DNA of 64,000 bases from an uncultured delta proteobacterium (GTDB taxonomy: Bacteria; Desulfobacterota; Desulfobaccia; Desulfobaccales; 0-14-0-80-60-11). The stretch is from assembly GCA_963739295.1 (NCBI GenBank), contig CAVTZS010000015.1, forward strand, positions 13,574 to 77,573, read 5' to 3'. The notes beneath the pieces were generated by a model. That model saw nothing but the letters and a program-made list of their open reading frames with translations. It had not been told where the DNA came from and did not search any database. Numbering within the stretch: the first letter of the stretch is position 1; every line of letters begins with the position of its first letter. This document shows, in pieces, positions 6,581-52,564 of this stretch. The translations under genes and the position numbers were made by a program.

Positions 6581-7282
6581 TTATTCGCCCCTCCCAGGCC
6601 GTTGCCCGAAGATGGCGGTGCCCACCCGCACCAGGGTAGCCCCTTCCTCCACCGCCACCTCAAAGTCCCCGGACATGCCCATGGAAAGTTCGTTCAGGGG
6701 ACTGTCGGTTACCCCCCGGCGCCGCAGCCGGTCCCGGAGTTCTCTCAGCGCCCGGTAAAAAGGACGGACCCTTTCCGGGTCGGCAAAGTAAGGGGGCATG
6801 GTCATCAAGCCCAGCAGGCGCAAATGGGGGAGTCGGGAAATCTCCCGAACCAGGTCCGGCACCTCCTCCGGCGGGGCCCCGGATTTGGACGCCTCTCCGG
6901 CCAGGTTAACCTCGACGAGGATTTCTTGAATCTTATCAAGGCGGGCCGCGGCCTGCTCCAGGGCCTGGGCCAATTTTACCCGGTCCACGGAGTGGATCAG
7001 CTCAAAGAGCTCCACCACGGCCCTGGCCTTGTTGGTCTGCAGGTGGCCCACGAAGTGCCAGTTCACCCCCGGCCCCAGGGCCAGGATCTTGCCTCTGGCC
7101 TCCTGGAGATAATTCTCTCCGAAGAGGCGCTGGTCCGCGGCCACCGCCTCTTTCAGAAGTTCGCCGGGCACCGTCTTGCTCACCGCCACCAAGCGCACCT
7201 CCGCCGGGTCCCGGCCCACGGCCCGGGCCGCGGCCGCCAGGCGCTGTCTCACTTCCTCCAGGTTCCGGGCAATCTGGCTCAT
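6581..7282 (-). CDS. yggS: YggS-family pyridoxal-phosphate homeostasis protein
   Basis: RLVAVSKT, FGENYLQE, WHFVGHLQTNK, LSMGMSGDFEVAVEEGATLVRVGTAIFG. Confidence 0.85.
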   Translation of the reverse strand: MSQIARNLEEVRQRLAAAARAVGRDPAEVRLVAVSKTVPGELLKEAVAADQRLFGENYLQEARGKILALGPGVNWHFVGHLQTNKARAVVELFELIHSVDRVKLAQALEQAAARLDKIQEILVEVNLAGEASKSGAPPEEVPDLVREISRLPHLRLLGLMTMPPYFADPERVRPFYRALRELRDRLRRRGVTDSPLNELSMGMSGDFEVAVEEGATLVRVGTAIFGQRPGRGE

Positions 7283-7297
7283 ATTAGGTGTAGGTTA

Positions 7298-7342
7298 TGG
7301 GGGAGGGGGCTAAGGGCCTCAGGCCCCTGGCCCTCCCCCCAC
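7298..7342. repeat. composite intergenic repeat, solo hairpin derivative
   Basis: TGGGGGAGGGGGCTAAGGGCCtcaGGCCCCTGGCCCTCCCCCCAC. It contains the tatD stop codon. Confidence 0.8.
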
Positions 7343-8137
7343 AATCTCTTCCTCCGGCCTCCCGTCCAGGCCGAAGGCGGTCAGGGTATTTTGCCAGGTC
7401 TGGCTGGCCACTTCTTCCAGGGAGAGGTCCAGGATTTGCGCCAGTTGTTGGGCCGTGGCCCTGACGTAGGCCGGCTCATTGCGTTTCCCCCGCCAGGGCT
7501 GGGGAGGCAGATAGGGACAATCGGTCTCCACCAGCACTCGATCCAGGGGCAGTCTTTGGGCCACCTGGCGCAGAGCCTCCGCCTTGGGATAGGTGAGGGT
7601 GCCGGAGAAGGACAGGTACAGGCCCAGGTCCAGGAAGGCCTGGGCTTCTTCCAGGCTGCCGCCGAAGCAGTGCATCACCCCACCCCAAAGCCGGCTGCGG
7701 TATTCCCGGAGGATGGCCAGGGTGGCGCTGGTTGCCTCCCGGGTGTGAACCACCACGATTTTTTTCAGTCCATAAGCCCATTCCAGTTGCCGGCGAAACC
7801 AATGCTCCTGCACCGCCTCGGGGGCGCGGCGGCGATAGAAATCGAGGCCGGTCTCGCCCACGGCCACTACCTTGGGATCGGCGGCCAGGGAACTTAGGGC
7901 CTCCAAATCCTGGTCCTTGAGAGACCCCACCCCATGGGGATGAACCCCGATGGTGGCAAAGACCCCGGAGCACTTCCGGGCCGTGTTCAGGACCTGGCGG
8001 GATTGGTTTAAGCCGATCCCCACATTGATAATCAAAGCCACCCCAGCCTCCCGGGCCCGCTGCAACACCTCCCCTTGGTCGGGTTGGAGCTCCGGCAGAT
8101 CCAGGTGGGCATGGGCGTCAGCCAGGCGCATGGTCAT
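7319..8137 (-). CDS. tatD: TatD-family metal-dependent hydrolase
   Basis: MTMRLADAHAHLDLPE, GVHPHG, VAVGETGLDFYR, HTREA, ETDCPYLPP. The internal Met at 8137 is preferred over the track start at 8203. Confidence 0.8.
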   Translation of the reverse strand: MTMRLADAHAHLDLPELQPDQGEVLQRAREAGVALIINVGIGLNQSRQVLNTARKCSGVFATIGVHPHGVGSLKDQDLEALSSLAADPKVVAVGETGLDFYRRRAPEAVQEHWFRRQLEWAYGLKKIVVVHTREATSATLAILREYRSRLWGGVMHCFGGSLEEAQAFLDLGLYLSFSGTLTYPKAEALRQVAQRLPLDRVLVETDCPYLPPQPWRGKRNEPAYVRATAQQLAQILDLSLEEVASQTWQNTLTAFGLDGRPEEEIVGGGPGA

Positions 8138-24101: not shown

Positions 24102-24137
24102 AAAAAAAACCGGATTGCCTCAACTCAGGCAACCCGG
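24102..24137 (-). terminator. riboswitch expression-platform terminator
   Basis: Minus strand CCGGGUUGCCU-gaguug-AGGCAAUCCGG (11 bp) followed by U8. The 5' arm overlaps the 3' strand of the aptamer. Confidence 0.7.
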
Positions 24138-24205
24138 CTATCTCCATCATTTAGAGACCCGTGGCTTTCCGTCCCCACCTTGCGATGGGTTTGGCCTTTT
24201 CTGAC
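24128..24205 (-). promoter_or_regulatory. c-di-GMP-I (GEMM-I) riboswitch aptamer
   Basis: Minus strand reads AAAGGCCAAACCCAUCGCAAGGUGGGGACGGAAAGCCACGGGUCUCUAAAUGAUGGAGAUAGCCGGGUUGCC. It tracks the recalled Vc2 pattern GGCAAACC-(GNRA hairpin)-GGGACGCAAAGCC-(hairpin)-AGCGGGGUUACC. Confidence 0.65.
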
Positions 24206-39856: not shown

Positions 39857-40019
39857 AAGGCCATTTCTAGGCGTATGAAGAGGAAGATGTTCACATTATC
39901 CTTAGGCAACGTCGATTTCTTCCGACCTACGCTATTGGTGAGTGTGGCGGTAAGTAAAGGCTAAGGGCATTTCACTTACGTTTCAAAGTGGGATAAAAAC
40001 TCGATAACACTATCAGGTA

Positions 40020-40640
40020 CTAAGTCTTAAAAAAGCCGAATTTTTTCATCAAAAGTGGTCCAAAAGAGGGGGCAGCTTCATAAGGATAATCACAGTATTT
40101 GCATATTGGTATCATTTTTCTGTTGCCCGCAGATAACTTTCGCCGATATTCGATAAATCTTTGATTGTTCCATATTTCTAATAAACTGTTGTCATGAACA
40201 TTGCCCATGACATATTCCCCATAAAAATCCTGACAGCACAACAGAACGTCACCCTTCCAATTTATTACCATGTCACGGGAAGGTCTGAGGCAAGGAATTC
40301 CTAATGTTACCCCCCTTTTAAATATTTTTCCTGCTCTATCGATTTTCTGAATATCTCTACCTTTGATGACCTTGATGTTAATTGGATATTTTTTTTCAAG
40401 TAAAGTAAGTTCTGGTTTTTCAATATTATCATGGTTGGTTACATCAAAAAAGTCCACTCCTTTATTAATTAACTCTATAAACAAATCCTCTTTAAGCATG
40501 TCACCATTTGTGTAAATAACAACAAAACAATTGGGGATATATCTTTTTCATTGGTTCACTATTGCCAATTTTAAAAAAATGAGCACTGCATAGTTTTCTT
40601 CATTAATTCATTCATATTCCCGAAGAAATCATTCTTTGAG
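40020..40640 (-). pseudogene. radical SAM / SPASM-like enzyme remnant
   Basis: 40020..40499 encodes the C-terminal half (CLRPSRDMVINWKGDVLLCCQDFYG, IPICKYCDY). In-frame upstream reads ...YIPNCFVVIYTNGDMLKED after a stop. No intact CxxxCxxC segment remains. Confidence 0.55.
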
Positions 40641-40783
40641 AAGCATCCTACCCGGGATTATGCGGCAGAAATGCCTTTGGGGGCCCCTTTTACCGAGTTT
40701 CACCCCGACAAGGTTCCTCTTCTTGTCGCCAAATTGTCTGGTCAGGGGCATGAAAGAACTAATTCCGAGAGGGAATAACTGAT

Positions 40784-41122
40784 TCATAATCCGTTGCTCC
40801 GGACCACCGGGCGAGGGTCATCAACTATTGCAGGACCGGGGAGCGGATGGAGGTTTATGGATTTATCGGAGCCTTTATCTTTATCCCCCCAAAACAGTAA
40901 CCCTGAGGTTTGACTTGCCGCCCGAATCAGGACCACCAAAAAGACAAGGTATCCAAAGAAGCAATAGAAAGGCATACCGTACTTCCGCGAGAGGGGGCAT
41001 TGAATCAGGCCACTAGGGTGGCTCAGGCCGGCGCCTTTCTTTATCCAAAAGCGCACAACCTCATCAGTTTTACCCAGATTTTCATAAGGAAGGTTGGAAA
41101 TAAGGTTGGAAATTATAAACAT
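40784..41122 (-). CDS. hypothetical protein
   Basis: 112-aa ORF next to tRNA-His with no recognisable motif. It may be non-coding. Confidence 0.2.
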   Translation of the reverse strand: MFIISNLISNLPYENLGKTDEVVRFWIKKGAGLSHPSGLIQCPLSRKYGMPFYCFFGYLVFLVVLIRAASQTSGLLFWGDKDKGSDKSINLHPLPGPAIVDDPRPVVRSNGL

Positions 41123-41169: not shown

Positions 41170-41246
41170 TGGGGTGAGCGACGGGACTTGAACCCGCGAC
41201 CGCCGGGGCCACAACCCGGTGCTCTGCCACCTGAGCTACGCCCACC
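41170..41246 (-). tRNA. tRNA-His (anticodon GTG) with encoded G-1 and CCA
   Basis: Hand-folded cloverleaf: G(-1), acceptor GTGGGCG/CGCTCAC, D arm GCTC-AGGTGGCA-GAGC, anticodon arm CCGGG-TTGTGGC-CCCGG, variable CGGTC, T arm GCGGG-TTCAAGT-CCCGT, discriminator C, CCA. Confidence 0.9.
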
Positions 41247-47857: not shown

Positions 47858-48919
47858 ATGATGACTGATTTATCCCAGGTAATTTCCCGGATAGAGCCCA
47901 TCGATCCCACCTGGCTGGCCCAGGCCCAGGAGCGGCTGGATTTCCTCACCAAGCCTCCCGGCAGTTTGGGCCGGCTGGAAGAACTGGCGGCCCGATATGT
48001 GGCCATCCGCCAGGAACTGATGCCCACCCTGGAGAAGAAGCGGATCGTGGTCTTTGTCGCGGACCATGGGGTGGTGGCCGAGGGGGTCAGCGCCTTTCCC
48101 CAGGAGGTCACCTTCCAGATGGTCTACAATTTCTTGCGGGGGGGCGCGGGCATCAACGTTCTGGGCCGGCATGTGGGCGCCACGGTGGAAGTGGTGGATA
48201 TCGGGGTAGTCTATGACTTCGGGGAGGAGCCCGGACTCATCTCCCGGAAGGTGGCCTATGGCTCCCGCAACCTGGCTCAGGAGCCCGCCTTGACCCAGGA
48301 AGAGGCCGTAAAAGCCGTGATGGTGGGGGTAGAGCGGGCCCAGGAGGCCTGCGCCGCCGGGGTGGACGCCCTGGCGGCCGGGGACATGGGCATCGGCAAC
48401 ACCACCCCGGCTGCGGCCCTGGCCGCAGTCTTCACCGGACGGCCGGTGGCCGCAGTCACCGGCCGGGGCACCGGCATCGGCGATGCCGCCTTGCGCCACA
48501 AGGTGGCGGTGATTAATCGCGCCCTGTCCCTGCACAAGCCCAAGGCGGAGGAACCCCTGGCCGCGCTGGCCCAGGTGGGTGGGTTGGATATTGCCGGCAT
48601 TGCCGGATTAATCCTGGGGGCCGCGGCGTGTCGGCGCCCACTGATGCTGGACGGCTTCATCGCCACCGCGGGTGCCTTGGTCGCAGCCCGTTTGGCCCCC
48701 GCGGCGGTGGACTACCTCATTGCCGCCCACCGTTCGGTGGAGCCGGGGCATCAGACCATGCTGGACGCCTTGGGGTTGAAGCCCTTGCTGAACTTGGGAA
48801 TGCGCCTGGGAGAGGGTACCGGGGCCGCCTTAGGGATGGGGCTGCTGGAGGCCGGGATGAAGATCTACCGGGAGATGGCCACCTTCGCCGAGGCCAGAGT
48901 GGCGGAAAAGCCGGCATGA
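47858..48919 (+). CDS. cobT: nicotinate-nucleotide--dimethylbenzimidazole phosphoribosyltransferase
   Basis: LTKPPGSLGRLEEL, GDMGIGNTTPAAAL, MRLGEGTGAA. Confidence 0.9.
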   Translation: MMTDLSQVISRIEPIDPTWLAQAQERLDFLTKPPGSLGRLEELAARYVAIRQELMPTLEKKRIVVFVADHGVVAEGVSAFPQEVTFQMVYNFLRGGAGINVLGRHVGATVEVVDIGVVYDFGEEPGLISRKVAYGSRNLAQEPALTQEEAVKAVMVGVERAQEACAAGVDALAAGDMGIGNTTPAAALAAVFTGRPVAAVTGRGTGIGDAALRHKVAVINRALSLHKPKAEEPLAALAQVGGLDIAGIAGLILGAAACRRPLMLDGFIATAGALVAARLAPAAVDYLIAAHRSVEPGHQTMLDALGLKPLLNLGMRLGEGTGAALGMGLLEAGMKIYREMATFAEARVAEKPA

Positions 48920-49653
48920 AATGCACCCTGCCCCTGGCCCTGACCTTCCTCACCATCCTGCCCTGGCCCCGGCTGGGTTTGGCCGGGCCGGAAGATCTGG
49001 CCCGCTCCATGTTCTGGTTCCCCTGGGTGGGGGCCTTGTTGGGTGGCATTTATGGGGTAGCCTGGGCCGGGCTCCACAAAATCCTCCCTGCCCCCGCGGC
49101 GGCCGCCCTCCTCCTGGGTTTGACGGTATGGCTCACGGGCGCCCTCCACCAGGACGGCTTGGCGGACACCGCAGACGGCCTGGCCGGGGGTGCAAACCCC
49201 GCGGAGCGCCTGCAAATTATGAAAGACTCCCACCTGGGCACCTTCGGGGTGGTGAGCCTGATCCTGGTGCTTCTCTTAAAATTTGCCTTTTTTCTGGCCT
49301 GGGCCGATAAGGGGGCGGGCAGGATTCTCTTCCTCTATCCGGTGATCAGCCGCTGGGGGATGGTGTATCTGGCCTTCCTGTCGCCCTACGCCCGCCCCGA
49401 GGGTGGTCTGGGCCAGGCCATGACCACCGGGGTCGATGGCAAGGTGGTGGCCGGCGCCACCTTGAGCGCCCTGGCCCTGGCCCTGGTTATTTATGGCTTC
49501 CGGGGGCTGGTGCTCCTTGCCGTGGCCGCTCTCTGTGTTTGGCTGGGGAGCCTATATTTCCAGAAAAAGTTGGGCGGGGTCACCGGCGACGTCCTGGGCG
49601 CCGGCAATGAGCTGCTGGAAGTACTGGCCCTGGGAGGAAGCTTGTTTTTTTAG
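48916..49653 (+). CDS. cobS: adenosylcobinamide-GDP ribazoletransferase (cobalamin synthase)
   Basis: ATGA overlap with cobT. LTFLTILPW, HQDGLADTADGL, GGVTGDVLGA. The track ORF 48628..49653 over-extends upstream. Confidence 0.85.
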   Translation: MKCTLPLALTFLTILPWPRLGLAGPEDLARSMFWFPWVGALLGGIYGVAWAGLHKILPAPAAAALLLGLTVWLTGALHQDGLADTADGLAGGANPAERLQIMKDSHLGTFGVVSLILVLLLKFAFFLAWADKGAGRILFLYPVISRWGMVYLAFLSPYARPEGGLGQAMTTGVDGKVVAGATLSALALALVIYGFRGLVLLAVAALCVWLGSLYFQKKLGGVTGDVLGAGNELLEVLALGGSLFF

Positions 49654-49658
49654 TCTTT

Positions 49659-49687
49659 TTGACAAATGATTACGGTTCAGTTATAAT
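49659..49687 (+). promoter_or_regulatory. sigma-70-type promoter (consensus -35 and -10)
   Basis: TTGACA (49659-49664), 17-nt spacer, TATAAT (49682-49687). GAGGA SD at 49703, ATG at 49717. Confidence 0.6.
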
Positions 49688-49695
49688 TGAAATAA
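49683..49695 (+). repeat. 13-bp direct repeat ATAATTGAAATAA, left copy
   Basis: Identical 13-mer at 51348-51360. Confidence 0.6.
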
Positions 49696-49716
49696 CTCCT
49701 TTGAGGAATTAGTAAT

Positions 49717-50868
49717 ATGCCACGCACTATAGAAACGAGTGTAAATCCCAAAGTATTGCAATGGGCTAGAGAGAGTATTGGATTGGGAGTTAATAATGTC
49801 GCTAAAAAAGTGAAATTAAAAGAGGAAGCAATAAGAAAATGGGAATCGGGTGAGGGTAAAATTAGGTTAACTCAGCTAGAAAAACTTGCCGATATTTATA
49901 AACGACCATTAGCAGCATTTTTCCTATCGAGCCCACCAAAAGAACCACCATTACCTGATGATTTCCGTGGATTAGCAAAAGGTCAATTAGCATTTTCTTC
50001 AAAAACATTACTTGGAATTAGAAGAGTAAGATATATTCAATCATTATATTTTGATTTGGCTGCATCAATGAATGTTCGGCCGAATGCGAAAATAAAAAAA
50101 ATAGAACTATCGAATAATCCAGAACTATTGGCAAATGAGATAAGAAATCAATTAAACATTCATATAGAAGACCAATTCCAATGGAATGACGAAAGAAGCG
50201 CCCTTATCGAATGGAAAAAAATAATAGAAAGCCAAGGGGTATTAGTTTTAGAAATTGCTATGCCTTTAGAAGAAGCAAGGGCTTTCTCATTGGCTGGCGA
50301 AGGAATACCGGTTGTTGTGCTCAATTACAGCGATTACCCTAATGGAAGGATTTTTTCAATATTTCACGAATATGCTCATATTCTGCTTAATCATGGCGGA
50401 ATATGTAATCCTTTGGCAGAAGAGACAGAGGAAATCTCAATAGAAAAATTCTGTAACCATTTTGCTGGAGGTTTTTTAGTTCCAAAGACTGCCTTATTAA
50501 AGTTAAATGAAGAATATGATAAGAAGTATGATATTGATAAAAAATTAACTAAACTTGCTAGCAAATTTAAAGTTAGTAGACAAGTAATCTTAAGACGATT
50601 ACTATCGTTGGAATTAATTAACAAAGATTATTTCCAAAGAAAGAATCAAGAGTTAATTGCTGAATTTAAAAGAATTAAAAGACAGATAAGAGGGAGGGCT
50701 GTTCCTTCCGAACAGTGTATTCGGAAAAATGGATTTTACTTTGTTTCACTAGTTTTAGATGCTTATAGAGGAGGTAAAATAACCTATAGCGATGTTTCGG
50801 ATTACTTAGGTATAAAACTTAAATATGTTCCTAAGGTTGAAGAACGCCTTGGGGAAATATTTTCTTAA
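49717..50868 (+). CDS. XRE-type HTH fused to ImmA/IrrE-family zinc metallopeptidase
   Basis: N-terminal HTH-like VLQWARESIGLGVNNVAKKVKLKEEAIRKWESGEGKIRLTQLEKLADIY. HEYAHILLNH is the HExxH motif. Confidence 0.75.
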   Translation: MPRTIETSVNPKVLQWARESIGLGVNNVAKKVKLKEEAIRKWESGEGKIRLTQLEKLADIYKRPLAAFFLSSPPKEPPLPDDFRGLAKGQLAFSSKTLLGIRRVRYIQSLYFDLAASMNVRPNAKIKKIELSNNPELLANEIRNQLNIHIEDQFQWNDERSALIEWKKIIESQGVLVLEIAMPLEEARAFSLAGEGIPVVVLNYSDYPNGRIFSIFHEYAHILLNHGGICNPLAEETEEISIEKFCNHFAGGFLVPKTALLKLNEEYDKKYDIDKKLTKLASKFKVSRQVILRRLLSLELINKDYFQRKNQELIAEFKRIKRQIRGRAVPSEQCIRKNGFYFVSLVLDAYRGGKITYSDVSDYLGIKLKYVPKVEERLGEIFS

Positions 50869-51339
50869 ATGAATAAAGGCTTGTTTCAGAAATATTGCAT
50901 AGACACAAGTTCTCTAATAGAATTAAGGCATTACCCTCGGGTAACATTCCCTTCATTGTGGGAGAAGATTGAGGAACTTATAGGTCAGGGAATTCTAATA
51001 GCTCCTAGGGAGGTATATAGGGAACTTAAGCAACAAGCAGACGATATATATTTTTGGGCAAAGAATAATAAAACAATGTTTAAGGCTATAAATGGAAAAG
51101 AGTTATCAGAAGTGAAAGATATTTTAAAAGTTTATCCAGACCTTATTAATTATAATAAAACTACACCCGACGCCGATCCTTTCATCATTGCTTTAGCTAA
51201 GCATAGAGCATGTACTGTTATTACTCAAGAAAGATTGAAGCCTTCTGGTAAACCAAAAATTCCAAATGTTTGCAAAGATTATGGAATTAACTGTATTGAT
51301 TTATTAAGTTTATTTATTGAGCAAGAATGGTCTTTTTGA
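50869..51339 (+). CDS. DUF4411-family (PIN-like nuclease fold) protein
   Basis: ATG immediately follows the upstream TAA. YCIDTSSLIEL, DADPFIIALAK, VITQE match the recalled DUF4411 pattern. Confidence 0.7.
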   Translation: MNKGLFQKYCIDTSSLIELRHYPRVTFPSLWEKIEELIGQGILIAPREVYRELKQQADDIYFWAKNNKTMFKAINGKELSEVKDILKVYPDLINYNKTTPDADPFIIALAKHRACTVITQERLKPSGKPKIPNVCKDYGINCIDLLSLFIEQEWSF

Positions 51340-51347
51340 AAAAGTGG

Positions 51348-51360
51348 ATAATTGAAATAA
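51348..51360 (+). repeat. 13-bp direct repeat ATAATTGAAATAA, right copy
   Basis: Identical to 49683-49695. Confidence 0.6.
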
Positions 51361-51453
51361 TGATGGAATATTATTTATGATGAAATAGTGATAACCTATT
51401 GATATAATATTAAAAATATAGAATAATTAAGTTAGATAAAAAAGGAGTACAAT

Positions 51454-52564
51454 ATGTTACCTGAAATAGCCGAAATCCGGGCCAAATTGAAAGAATTTAA
51501 AGATAAGCTCACGCTCCTCCGAGGGCATCTTTGATCTGGAGGACAAGCAGGCCAGATTAGCAGAGTTAGAAAAGCAACTGGCCACGCCGGGACTGTGGGA
51601 GGATGCCACCCAGGCCGCCGACCTCTTAAGAGAGCGCAGCGCCCTGACCCAGGTGGTGGAAGATTGCCAGCAGCACTTTAAGCAGGTGGAGGACCTGGAA
51701 GTCCTGCTGGACCTAGCCCTGGAAGAGGACGATCAAGGGGCCCTGAAGGATGTGGCCCAGGACCTGGCCGTCCTGGAGGAAACCTATCAGGGTTGGGAGC
51801 TCAAGCTCCTTTTTACCGAAGAAGACCAGAAGAACGCCATCATTACCATCCATGCCGGCGCCGGCGGCACTGAGGCCCAGGATTGGGCCGAAATCTTGCT
51901 GCGCATGTATCTGCGCTATGCGGAACGCAAGGCCTTCAAGACCGAGACCCTGGACCTGTTGGTCGGGGACGAAGCCGGGATCAAGAGCGTCACCTTTACG
52001 GCCTCGGGAGACCACGCCTACGGCTATTTGAAGAGTGAAAGCGGCATCCACCGCCTGGTGCGCATCTCTCCTTTCGATGCCAGTGGCCGCCGCCATACCT
52101 CCTTTGCCGCGGTTCAGGTGCTGCCGGAGGTGGATGAAAAAATTGAGATCGACCTCAACGAGAAGGACTTGCGGATCGATACCTTCCGGGCCAGCGGCCC
52201 CGGCGGGCAACACGTTAATAAGACCAGCTCCGCGGTGCGCATCACCCACCTGCCCAGCGGCATTGTCGTCACCTCCCAAACCGAAAGATCGCAGCACCGC
52301 AATAAAGAGCTGGCCATGAAGGTCTTGCGGGCCCGCCTCTACAGTCTGGAGCAGCGCAAGCGGGAAGAAAAGAAACAGGAGCTGCAAGAGTCTCAGAAAG
52401 AAATCGCCTGGGGCAGCCAGATCCGTTCCTATACCCTTCAGCCCTACCGCCTGGTGAAGGACCACCGCACCAAGCACGAGGAAGGCAACGTGGATGCGGT
52501 CCTGGACGGCGACCTGGACCCCTTCGTGGAAGCCTATTTGATGCAGCCCGGGGAGGCTAAGTAG
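51454..52564 (+). CDS. prfB: peptide chain release factor 2, with programmed +1 frameshift (51454..51531 joined to 51533..52564)
   Basis: AAGGAG SD. MLPEIAEIRAKLKEFKDKLTLLRGHL, then in-frame TGA at 51532. The +1 frame continues DLEDKQARLAELEKQL... with SPF and GGQ motifs (SPFDASGRRHTSF, GPGGQHVNKTSSAVRITH). Confidence 0.9.
51522..51535 (+). promoter_or_regulatory. prfB autoregulatory +1 frameshift site
   Basis: GAGGG (SD-like), CAT, then CTT TGA T. Same layout as the classical AGGGGG-UAU-CUU-UGA-C site. Confidence 0.85.

What the first reader, a model, noticed from the sequence alone, without database searches (positions are those of the whole stretch)
49654..51440. AT-rich HTH-ImmA/IrrE plus DUF4411 (PIN-like) two-gene cassette inserted between cobS and prfB
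Composition drops abruptly at the cobS stop.

The cassette carries a textbook promoter: TTGACA, a 17-nt spacer, then TATAAT. It encodes a 383-aa XRE-HTH/ImmA-IrrE metallopeptidase (HEYAHILLNH) whose TAA abuts the ATG of a 156-aa DUF4411 protein (YCIDTSSLIEL, DADPFIIALAK, VITQE). An identical 13-mer ATAATTGAAATAA brackets the pair, at 49683 overlapping the -10 box and at 51348.

This gene pairing has been predicted from comparative genomics to be a toxin-antitoxin or abortive-infection-type module, with a protease/repressor controlling a PIN-like nuclease. To my knowledge it is not experimentally characterised. It is the clearest horizontally acquired candidate defence module in the window.
Basis: partly seen in the sequence, partly recalled or inferred. 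Interest (0 to 1): 0.65.

Follow-up and report, generated by a model that had tools for sequence, protein, structure and literature searches.

The report
VapBC52-type toxin-antitoxin cassette upstream of prfB
An AT-rich, horizontally acquired two-gene cassette (a large HTH–zinc-peptidase antitoxin followed by a PIN-like DUF4411 RNase toxin) sits between cobS and prfB of a GC-rich Desulfobaccales bacterium. It belongs to a toxin-antitoxin/phage-defence family whose Mycobacterium tuberculosis member (VapBC52) was solved and characterised in 2026, so only its repeated appearance at this one chromosomal spot is new.

Summary
GC falls from about 0.65 to about 0.32 at the cobS stop, and GC3 falls from about 0.80 to 0.24. 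The promoter is a perfect TTGACA-17-TATAAT. The 383-aa HTH_3 + Peptidase_M78 gene ends in a TAA that abuts the ATG of a 156-aa DUF4411 gene. A 13-mer brackets the pair.

The interpretation (mobile TA/abortive-infection module) is right, but "not experimentally characterised" is out of date. Both proteins are full-length homologues of M. tuberculosis VapB52/VapC52 (PDB 9VZY, 9VZZ; NAR 2026). In that system a PIN tRNase dimer is neutralised 1:2 by a three-domain antitoxin, and ssDNA triggers the antitoxin's zinc peptidase to cut off its own N-terminal domain.

Every residue named in that mechanism is present here: HEXXH, the Glu ligand, the cysteine switch, the FR linker motif and the D/E/D/E PIN quartet.

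What is new is positional. Of 19 related Desulfobaccales cobS–prfB junctions, 14 are plainly empty. Four carry divergent, equally AT-rich versions of this cassette, with at least two different insertion points. One carries an unrelated AT-rich insert. In three of the four cassettes, head and tail share imperfect direct repeats. The tail probably supplies the prfB promoter.

Verdict: new member of a known kind, with modest interest.

The parts
48916..49653 (+). cobS (adenosylcobinamide-GDP ribazoletransferase), left flank; its ATG overlaps the cobT stop
   Evidence: ORF and translation. CobS homologues at 62-78% identity in 34 Desulfobaccales/Thermodesulfobacteriota loci. GC 0.65, GC3 0.80.
49653..49695 (+). 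Cassette head. Repeat block 1 (GTCTTTTTGACAAA, 49653-49666) starts at the last base of the cobS stop codon. Repeat block 2 is the 13-mer ATAATTGAAATAA (49683-49695).
   Evidence: Shuffle tests. The head sequence TAG|..TTTTGACAAA is conserved in L036 and L047.
49659..49687 (+). Consensus sigma-70-type promoter TTGACA-17-TATAAT for the cassette
   Evidence: 12/12 match. The -35 TTGACA is conserved in L036 and is TTAACA in L047. The scan found no consensus promoter in L016 upstream of gene A.
49717..50868 (+). Gene A: 383-aa VapB52/RmrA-like antitoxin. Five-helix XRE HTH N-terminal domain (res 10-70), linker with F83-R84 (49963-49968), M78 zinc-peptidase core with H217-E218-x-x-H221 (50365-50379), C230 (50404-50406) and E243 (50443-50445), and a four-helix C-terminal domain (res about 330-383).
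   Evidence: Pfam. PADLOC RmrA 1.4e-24. phrog_2439 2.7e-54. 9vzy_A E 8e-40 for the single sequence and 2.4e-74 for the profile, full length. Invariant residues in 57 homologues. AF2 pLDDT 91.5. Foldseek top hits CapP, IrrE and PprI.
50869..51339 (+). Gene B: 156-aa DUF4411 PIN-like toxin (VapC52-like), with catalytic D12 (50902-50904), E52 (51022-51024), D103 (51175-51177) and E121 (51229-51231)
   Evidence: Pfam DUF4411 1.5e-34. The four acidic residues are invariant in 55 homologues. AF2 pLDDT 93.2. Foldseek top hits are VapC PIN toxins. 9vzy_D E 2.7e-20 for the single sequence and 1.3e-42 for the profile.
51330..51360 (+). Cassette tail repeat. Block 1 (GTCTTTTTGAAAAA, 51330-51343) spans the gene B stop codon. 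Block 2 is the 13-mer (51348-51360). The gap between blocks is 4 nt here, against 16 nt in the head.
51340..51454 (+). AT-rich 115-nt tail/spacer with several promoter-like sites (for example ATGAAA-17-TATAAT at 51380-51408 with TG) and the prfB Shine-Dalgarno sequence. There is no terminator, so this is the probable source of prfB transcription.
   Evidence: promoter-like sites; no terminator between B and prfB. Partial homology to the L016 tail. No significant single-strand fold, z -0.48.
51455..52564 (+). prfB (RF2), right flank, with the programmed +1 frameshift site CTT TGA T at 51529-51535
   Evidence: Read from the sequence. The CTTTGA site is present in all 17 related loci examined. 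The N-terminus MLPEIAEIRAKLKEFKDKL is close to that of L002.

Best explanation
The segment 49653-51454 is a horizontally acquired, self-contained two-gene type II toxin-antitoxin / abortive-infection cassette of the VapBC52 type. That type is the DUF4411-toxin branch of the RosmerTA-like systems with HTH-M78 antitoxins.

Shown:
- Gene A and gene B are co-directional, abutting (TAA-ATG), and sit behind a consensus promoter.
- Both are full-length homologues of the crystallised M. tuberculosis VapB52/VapC52.
- All residues assigned a role in that system are conserved.

Inferred from the homologue:
- B forms a dimer of a Mg2+/Mn2+-dependent PIN RNase that cuts tRNAs in the anticodon or variable loop.
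- One A molecule neutralises a B dimer. Its HTH N-terminal domain binds the outer face, and its four-helix C-terminal domain plugs the active site.
- A's zinc peptidase is held shut by a cysteine-switch loop (C230).
- Single-stranded DNA from phage replication or DNA damage opens it. A then cuts its own linker near F83-R84 and loses its grip on B. Free B arrests translation, aborting the infection or stalling growth.

Inferred from comparative genomics:
- The cassette arrived from an AT-rich gene pool.
- It lies in a spot (cobS 3' end / prfB upstream) that has taken up related cassettes more than once in Desulfobaccales.
- Its AT-rich tail now provides the sequence immediately upstream of prfB, and probably a promoter for it.
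For: - Domains.
- Antitoxin class: PADLOC RmrA hits at 1e-24 and NCBIfam spr1629 repressor/antitoxin, below cut-off.
- Homology to PDB 9VZY chains A and D over the full length. 9VZY and 9VZZ are the VapBC52 and VapC52-D6A structures.
- Mechanism of the homologue.
- Conserved H217/E218/H221, C230, E243 and R84, with F83 present here. Conserved D12/E52/D103/E121.
- High-confidence models with the same architecture and the same structural neighbours as the paper reports.
- Strict A-to-B linkage: 38 of 38 IMG/VR loci, plus L016, L036, L043, L047 and L090.
- The family is found on plasmids and in one phage record, and inside a type III R-M-like operon.
- Foreign origin: GC3 of 0.23-0.25 against about 0.80 in the flanking genes, 14 plainly empty junctions, and WIN and L016 are not sister taxa.
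Against: - No experiment on this protein pair exists. Identity to the Mtb proteins is modest, with E-values of 8e-40 and 2.7e-20 for the single sequences, so trigger and RNA target may differ.
- Phage protection in the paper came from toxin overexpression in M. smegmatis, not from the native operon.
- Gene B hits no PADLOC model.
- The neighbourhood here is housekeeping, not a defence island.
- F83 of the 'FR' motif is below 90% conserved in the family alignment.
Confidence: 0.72

Rival explanations
1. It is a purely selfish addiction or stabilisation module. The pair persists because loss of the labile or cleavable antitoxin frees the toxin. It gives the host no phage-defence or stress function here. 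Its position directly upstream of essential prfB only adds to its retention.
For: The cassette is solitary in a housekeeping operon context. The distribution is patchy and TA-like, including plasmids. Defence by the native operon has not been shown, even for VapBC52.
Against: The antitoxin keeps an intact, sensor-like peptidase with a cysteine switch, which a simple addiction module does not need. Relatives sit in prophages and in an R-M operon. RosmerTA systems with this antitoxin class defend against phage.
Confidence: 0.15
2. It is a RosmerTA-like system triggered by something other than ssDNA, such as a specific phage protein or redox/zinc signalling as in IrrE. Its RNA or DNA target may also differ from tRNA.
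For: Partner swapping is rife in this antitoxin family. An A homologue occurs with DUF2283 neighbours and no DUF4411, and hyperpromiscuity is documented. The cysteines C246 and C334 are conserved in addition to the switch C230. Identity to VapB52 is only moderate. PIN toxins differ widely in target.
Against: The ssDNA-binding relatives CapP and PprI are the closest structural neighbours of the peptidase core. The switch Cys, the ligand set and the linker motif are all conserved.
Confidence: 0.1
3. It is the immunity or regulatory remnant (ImmR/ImmA-like switch) of a decayed prophage or integrative element, and the PIN gene is a passenger. The module no longer works as a toxin-antitoxin pair.
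For: phrog_2439 'transcriptional regulator' hit over the full length. The family is present in 38 IMG/VR contigs. Head and tail direct repeats resemble att remnants.
Against: No other phage or element genes flank it; the insert is only 1.8 kb between intact cobS and prfB. Both ORFs are intact with all catalytic residues. HTH and peptidase are fused in one chain rather than split into ImmR and ImmA. The A-B pair travels as a unit in all contexts seen.
Confidence: 0.03

Closest known systems
M. tuberculosis VapBC52 (Rv2515c/Rv2514c; PDB 9VZY, 9VZZ; Singh et al., NAR 2026, PMC13273310)
   Same: - Same two-gene order.
- The antitoxin has the same three-domain layout: five-helix HTH N-terminal domain, M78 peptidase core with HEXXH, Glu and the cysteine switch, and a four-helix C-terminal domain.
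- The FR linker motif is present.
- The toxin is a DUF4411 PIN with the same acidic quartet and the C-terminal helix.
- Full-length sequence homology and the same structural neighbours.
   Different: - Only distant sequence identity to the Mtb proteins.
- The host is a GC-rich, anaerobic Desulfobaccales bacterium, yet the cassette is AT-rich and demonstrably foreign.
- VapB52 has an extra 23-residue disordered N-terminus.
- The cassette sits at a recurrently used cobS-prfB junction and carries its own consensus promoter.
- No biochemical data exist for this member.
RosmerTA (RmrT/RmrA; Millman et al. 2022; Ernits et al. 2023, PMC10440598)
   Same: The antitoxin has an XRE HTH plus an ImmA/IrrE zinc peptidase. 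Gene A hits 16 PADLOC RmrA models down to 1.4e-24. The systems are two-gene, phage-defensive TA modules with interchangeable toxins. NetFlax notes an association of the ImmA node with PIN-like domains.
   Different: Gene B matches no PADLOC model, so none of the RmrT models in PADLOC-DB v2. The validated RmrT toxins are of unknown function or depolarise membranes, and are not PIN RNases. Gene order in RosmerTA is variable; here it is strictly antitoxin first.
DUF4411.1 three-component TA prediction (Matelska, Steczkiewicz & Ginalski 2017, PMC5499597)
   Same: This is exactly the predicted arrangement: DUF4411.1 downstream of a fused HTH-DUF955 (COG2856/ImmA) gene, with four conserved acidic residues.
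   Different: That work was prediction only. It framed the HTH, the protease and the nuclease as three regulatory components, rather than as an antitoxin that clamps the toxin and cleaves itself.
CapH/CapP (CBASS regulators), IrrE/DdrO, ImmR/ImmA
   Same: M78/IrrE-type peptidase core. Closest structural matches are 7T5T, 3DTI and 8SLN. The logic is activation by ssDNA or damage through a cysteine-switch loop.
   Different: In those systems the protease cuts a separate HTH repressor to de-repress genes. Here the HTH and the protease are one chain, and the inferred output is release of a bound toxin. Foldseek aligned only about 175 residues to these proteins. The model's C-terminal part is a four-helix bundle, whereas CapP has a GAF domain.
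Canonical VapBC
   Same: PIN-fold toxin with VapC structures as best structural matches. The inferred activity is that of a tRNase.
   Different: The antitoxin is 383 aa with enzymatic activity, not an 8-13 kDa RHH/AbrB/Phd protein. In the homologue the stoichiometry is 1:2 with an open toxin dimer.

Membership tests
VapBC52-type (HTH-M78 antitoxin + DUF4411 toxin) | Antitoxin homologous to VapB52 over its full length (N-terminal, middle and C-terminal domains) | tested here: met
   phmmer against 9vzy_A gives E 8e-40, aligning residues 10-377 to 3-386. The profile gives 2.4e-74. The AF2 model has a five-helix N-terminal domain and a four-helix C-terminal domain.
VapBC52-type (HTH-M78 antitoxin + DUF4411 toxin) | Toxin is a DUF4411 PIN domain homologous to VapC52, with the catalytic acidic residues | tested here: met
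   Pfam DUF4411 1.5e-34. 9vzy_D E 2.7e-20 for the single sequence and 1.3e-42 for the profile. D12/E52/D103/E121 are invariant in 55 sequences. PIN fold.
VapBC52-type (HTH-M78 antitoxin + DUF4411 toxin) | Zinc site HEXXH plus Glu, and the cysteine-switch Cys | tested here: met
   H217, E218, H221, C230 and E243 are invariant in 57 homologues. They align with H216/H220, C229 and E245 of VapB52.
VapBC52-type (HTH-M78 antitoxin + DUF4411 toxin) | 'FR' motif in the linker between the N-terminal and middle domains (proposed self-cleavage site) | tested here: met
   The window has D82-F83-R84, aligned to the DFR of VapB52. D82 and R84 are invariant; F83 is the majority residue but below 90%. The linker has lower pLDDT.
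VapBC52-type (HTH-M78 antitoxin + DUF4411 toxin) | Antitoxin gene immediately upstream of the toxin gene on the same strand | tested here: met
   TAA-ATG abutment. 38 of 38 viral loci and all other loci examined show the same order.
VapBC52-type (HTH-M78 antitoxin + DUF4411 toxin) | Toxicity, neutralisation, 1:2 complex, ssDNA-triggered self-cleavage, tRNA cleavage | not testable with these tools
   Known only for the Mtb homologue.
RosmerTA | RmrA-type antitoxin (HTH + zinc peptidase) | tested here: met
   16 PADLOC RmrA models hit, best 1.4e-24, covering residues 9-317.
RosmerTA | Partner matches a recognised RmrT toxin model | tested here: not met
   Gene B has no PADLOC-DB v2 hit at E <= 0.01. 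DefenseFinder's RmrT models could not be searched.
Canonical VapBC | Small (about 70-110 aa) DNA-binding VapB antitoxin that wraps the VapC dimer | tested here: not met
   The antitoxin is 383 aa with an M78 peptidase core.
ImmR/ImmA, DdrO/IrrE, CapH/CapP switches | Separate HTH repressor gene as the protease substrate, with a GAF-like sensor domain on the protease | tested here: not met
   HTH and peptidase are fused in one ORF, with no neighbouring small HTH gene. The model's C-terminal part is a four-helix bundle. Foldseek matches to CapP and IrrE cover only about 175 residues.
Integron gene cassette | attC: an imperfect inverted repeat at the 3' end that folds as a single strand | tested here: not met
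   The tail 51337-51454 folds no better than shuffles (z -0.48). No long inverted repeat lies in the tail. No integrase is nearby.

The most novel reading that the evidence does not exclude
The cassette may be a recombinase-less mobile unit that repeatedly lands in the roughly 60-bp stretch between the cobS tail and prfB in Desulfobaccales.

- It would do so through att-like head and tail direct repeats. The left copy overlaps the cobS stop and the right copy overlaps the toxin stop.
- After insertion it brings its own AT-rich upstream sequence and promoter for the essential prfB gene.
- The cassette would then be protected twice: by toxin addiction, and by 'positional addiction', because deleting it would strip prfB of its promoter.
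- The duplicated 13-mer (a possible HTH operator at the cassette's -10 and again upstream of prfB) could couple RF2 expression to the state of the antitoxin.
Probability: 0.12. Interest if true: 0.55.

Novelty: new member of a known kind. Interest (0 to 1): 0.33.

Why it matters
- It extends a just-characterised, mechanistically unusual TA/defence family (a self-cleaving, ssDNA-sensing antitoxin with a PIN tRNase) to uncultured sulfate-reducer relatives. The mechanistic residues are invariant across 55-57 homologues, and the toxin family counts about 8,100 cluster representatives at 50% identity.
- The locus gives a clean natural example of presence/absence at one junction: 14 plainly empty, four filled with divergent cassettes and one with an unrelated insert. 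This could be used to study how recombinase-less TA cassettes move, and why they settle next to essential translation genes.
- Practically, it warns annotators that 'DUF4411 + ImmA/IrrE' now has a named, structurally solved prototype.

Tried and rejected
1. The idea that the L016 cassette had hijacked the native prfB promoter ('TTTTCTGGTAAAAT') was rejected. That string is the conserved cobS C-terminal codons plus the stop codon, and it sits at the cobS end in seven cassette-free relatives.
2. The claim that the cassette truncated cobS in the window was dropped. The nearest relative, L002, has 15 extra C-terminal residues, but many cassette-free relatives have equally short CobS ends.
3. Homologous-recombination import with an end point inside prfB cannot be inferred. 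The first 75 nt of prfB are low-GC in every relative (0.39-0.57), and the window's N-terminus matches L002.
4. The integron-cassette/attC reading was rejected. The tail does not fold.
5. The vertical-versus-horizontal question could not be settled by phylogeny. The NJ tree of CobT+PrfB is a poorly supported star (bootstraps 8-69%). It shows only that WIN and L016 are not sisters and that each has an empty nearest neighbour.
6. The metagenome scan with the DUF4411 alignment failed because no stretch was conserved enough. The retry with the single protein found only three distant loci.
7. The exact-match look-up of CobS found nothing.
8. A literature search for the PDB codes found nothing relevant. 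The link to the paper came from the 'DUF4411' full-text hit and its data-availability section.
9. The 13-mer as a family-wide operator is not supported. It is absent from L016, L036 and L047, whose heads and tails carry different repeats.
Full report
**1. The observation**

The region is as described. GC in 300-nt windows is 0.58-0.69 through cobS. It drops to 0.26-0.42 between about 49550 and 51650, then returns to about 0.60 in prfB. Third-codon-position GC is 0.82, 0.80 and 0.77 for cobT, cobS and prfB, against 0.23 and 0.25 for the two cassette genes.

The scan finds TTGACA (49659), 17 nt, TATAAT (to 49687), a 12/12 match. ORF A runs 49717-50868 (383 aa) and ORF B runs 50869-51339 (156 aa). 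The TAA of A is followed directly by the ATG of B. Pfam gives HTH_3 plus Peptidase_M78 for A, and full-length DUF4411 (1.5e-34) for B.

The 13-mer ATAATTGAAATAA occurs only at 49683 and 51348 in 64 kb, against 0.02 expected. A second repeated block lies just upstream of each copy: GTCTTTTTGACAAA at 49653-49666 and GTCTTTTTGAAAAA at 51330-51343. The left copy begins on the last base of the cobS stop codon. The right copy spans the stop codon of B. In 3000 shuffles of the two flanks, a 13-nt exact match arose twice and the two-block collinear arrangement never arose.

An independent metagenome contig (Logan ERR10755944, 1891 bp) is 100% identical across both junctions. The arrangement is therefore not an assembly artefact of one data set.

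**2. What the genes are**

A hits 16 PADLOC RmrA (RosmerTA antitoxin) models, down to 1.4e-24. It also hits the NCBIfam 'spr1629 family repressor/antitoxin' model below its cut-off, and phrog_2439 over its full length. B hits no PADLOC model, but does hit phrog_11126.

The decisive result came from the solved-structure search. A profile of A homologues matches chain A of PDB 9VZY over the full length (E 2.4e-74; 8e-40 for the single sequence). The B profile matches chain D of the same entry and 9VZZ, both labelled 'DUF4411 family protein' (E 1.3e-42; 2.7e-20 for the single sequence). These entries belong to Singh et al., Nucleic Acids Res. 2026 (PMC13273310), on M. tuberculosis VapBC52, Rv2515c/Rv2514c.

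That paper reports the following:
- VapC52 is a PIN-fold tRNase that cuts anticodon or variable loops.
- One VapB52 binds a VapC52 dimer (1:2).
- The five-helix N-terminal domain of VapB52 binds the outside of the dimer, and its four-helix C-terminal domain occludes the active site.
- The middle domain is an IrrE/CapP-like zinc peptidase. Its ligands are H216, H220 and E245, and a 'cysteine switch' residue C229 closes it.
- ssDNA triggers self-cleavage of the N-terminal domain at a linker that carries a conserved 'FR' motif.
- Toxin overexpression makes M. smegmatis resistant to phage D29.

**3. Testing those features here**

In an alignment of A with 56 homologues, H217, E218, H221, C230, E243, D82 and R84 are invariant. 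The HMMER alignment places them opposite the VapB52 residues named above, including DFR opposite DFR.

The AlphaFold model of A (pLDDT 91.5) has five N-terminal helices (residues 11-69). The linker around F83-R84 has lower confidence. The loop after C230 has low confidence (block mean 61). The C-terminus has four helices (residues 330-382). Its best PDB matches are CapP 7T5T, IrrE 3DTI, PprI-ssDNA 8SLN and PrpR. These are the same neighbours the paper lists for the VapB52 middle domain.

In 55 B homologues, D12, E52, D103 and E121 are invariant. The B model (pLDDT 93.2) matches VapC toxins and PAE2754. Every membership feature that can be tested in silico is met. The biochemical features cannot be tested here.

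**4. Linkage and distribution**

All 38 IMG/VR loci that encode a DUF4411 relative have a full-length A-family gene (374-505 aa) ending just upstream on the same strand. The same holds in every other locus examined.

The toxin family has 8109 representatives (50%-identity clusters) at E <= 1e-3. A has 1531 homologues at E <= 1e-10. Members occur on 16 plasmids and one phage record. In another Thermodesulfobacteriota MAG the pair sits between an N6_N4 methyltransferase and a ResIII helicase, a defence-type context. One A homologue has DUF2283 neighbours and no DUF4411, which fits the partner swapping documented for this antitoxin class.

The pairing was predicted as a TA system by Matelska et al. 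2017.

**5. The locus in relatives**

CobS places the host among uncultured Desulfobaccales; the best match is 78% identical. cobT-cobS-prfB synteny is conserved.

Nineteen junctions were compared:
- Fourteen are plainly empty, with spacers of 59-307 nt and GC 0.34-0.63. (In L017 the cobS end could not be placed cleanly.)
- L031 has an unrelated 932-nt AT-rich insert encoding a 208-aa ORF with no Pfam match.
- Four carry this cassette clade: the window, L016, L036 and L047.

These four cassettes are each other's closest relatives in the databases. B identity to the window is 65-71% and then falls to 55% or less. A identity is 54-61% and then about 53%. All four have GC3 of 0.16-0.29.

Their junctions differ.
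- In L016 the cassette follows an intact long-form cobS stop.
- In L047 the cassette is followed by about 65 nt of AT-rich tail. Then come a displaced cobS 3' remnant, a GC-rich native spacer about 85% identical to the empty L002 spacer, and an L002-like prfB start. That insertion therefore lies inside the cobS tail.
- L036, whose cassette proteins are 89% identical to those of L047, instead abuts prfB directly.

A CobT+PrfB tree is poorly resolved. It does not make the window and L016 sisters, and the nearest neighbour of each is empty.

At 54-65% protein identity, synonymous sites between the window and L016 cassettes should be saturated. In-situ divergence in hosts with GC3 near 0.8 should then have raised cassette GC3, and it has not. 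I therefore favour several independent arrivals from an AT-rich pool at one hotspot over a single ancient insertion followed by many losses. This is inference. Selection for AT-richness is the alternative.

**6. Head and tail**

The left ends are conserved: TAG|TCTTTTTGACAAAT in the window, TAG|GGTTTTGACAAAAAT in L036 and TAG|GGTTTTAACAAAAAT in L047. The -35 box therefore belongs to the cassette, and in these three a stop codon for cobS lies at the cassette edge.

Gapped local alignment of head against tail beats shuffles in the window (3/500), L036 (1/500) and L016 (16/500). It does not in L047, the one case that keeps the native prfB upstream region.

The window's tail has several promoter-like sites and no terminator before prfB, and it does not fold like an attC site. 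The simplest reading is that the head/tail repeats are traces of the insertion process (an att-like core or microhomology) or a duplicated promoter/operator, and that the tail now drives prfB. Neither reading is shown.

**7. Verdict**

The system is no longer uncharacterised: it is a new member of the VapBC52 / DUF4411-HTH-M78 family. The residual novelty is the recurrent, junction-variable occupation of the cobS-prfB spacer by an un-ameliorated AT-rich cassette. Interest is modest (0.33).

Noticed in passing
window 51455-52564 (site at 51529-51535): prfB carries the classical programmed +1 frameshift (CTT TGA T) 25 codons in, preceded by an SD-like GAGGG (51521-51525). The ORF lister therefore splits the gene. 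The CTTTGA site is present in all 17 related loci examined.
   Followed up: partly
window about 39900-40800; ORF 40020-40499 (-); tRNA-His 41170-41245 (-): A second AT-rich island (GC 0.33-0.40 against a window mean of 0.59) encodes a 159-aa protein with a SPASM iron-sulfur domain (Pfam 4.4e-18). It lies next to tRNA-His and may be another acquired segment.
   Followed up: partly
window 24124-24204 (-): c-di-GMP-I-GGC riboswitch aptamer, 75.8 bits against a gathering score of 59.
   Followed up: no
L031 6775-7706 (ORF 6989-7615): A different 932-nt AT-rich insert (GC 0.38) occupies the same cobS-prfB spacer in another relative. It encodes a 208-aa protein with a hydrophobic N-terminus and no Pfam or PADLOC match. 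This supports the idea that the spacer is a general landing spot for foreign DNA.
   Followed up: partly
L090 2301-8194: In a Thermodesulfobacteriota MAG (GCA_050735355.1) the homologous A-B pair is wedged between an N6_N4 DNA methyltransferase and a ResIII helicase. This is a TA cassette inside a type III R-M-like operon.
   Followed up: no
L092-L094 (A homologue at L092 2960-4114): An A-family protein (51% identical) has no DUF4411 partner. Small DUF2283 genes lie on both sides of it, which may be a toxin swap or an orphan antitoxin.
   Followed up: no
gene A, residues C246 and C334 (window 50452-50454 and 50716-50718): Besides the switch cysteine C230, two more cysteines are invariant or nearly so across 57 homologues. 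The excerpts of the VapBC52 paper that I read do not discuss them. They could form a second metal or redox site.
   Followed up: no
L001, L036, L047, L041 and many entries: A striking share of metagenome contigs carrying this cassette family are cassette-sized (1.7-2.9 kb) and end within tens of bases of the flanking genes. This may reflect assembly breaks at strain-variable or compositionally abrupt boundaries.
   Followed up: no
CobS C-termini, loci L002-L031: CobS in these relatives comes in a short form (ending about ...LAGALMLT*) and a long form with about 14 extra residues ending FW*/FF*. The variation is independent of the cassette.
   Followed up: partly
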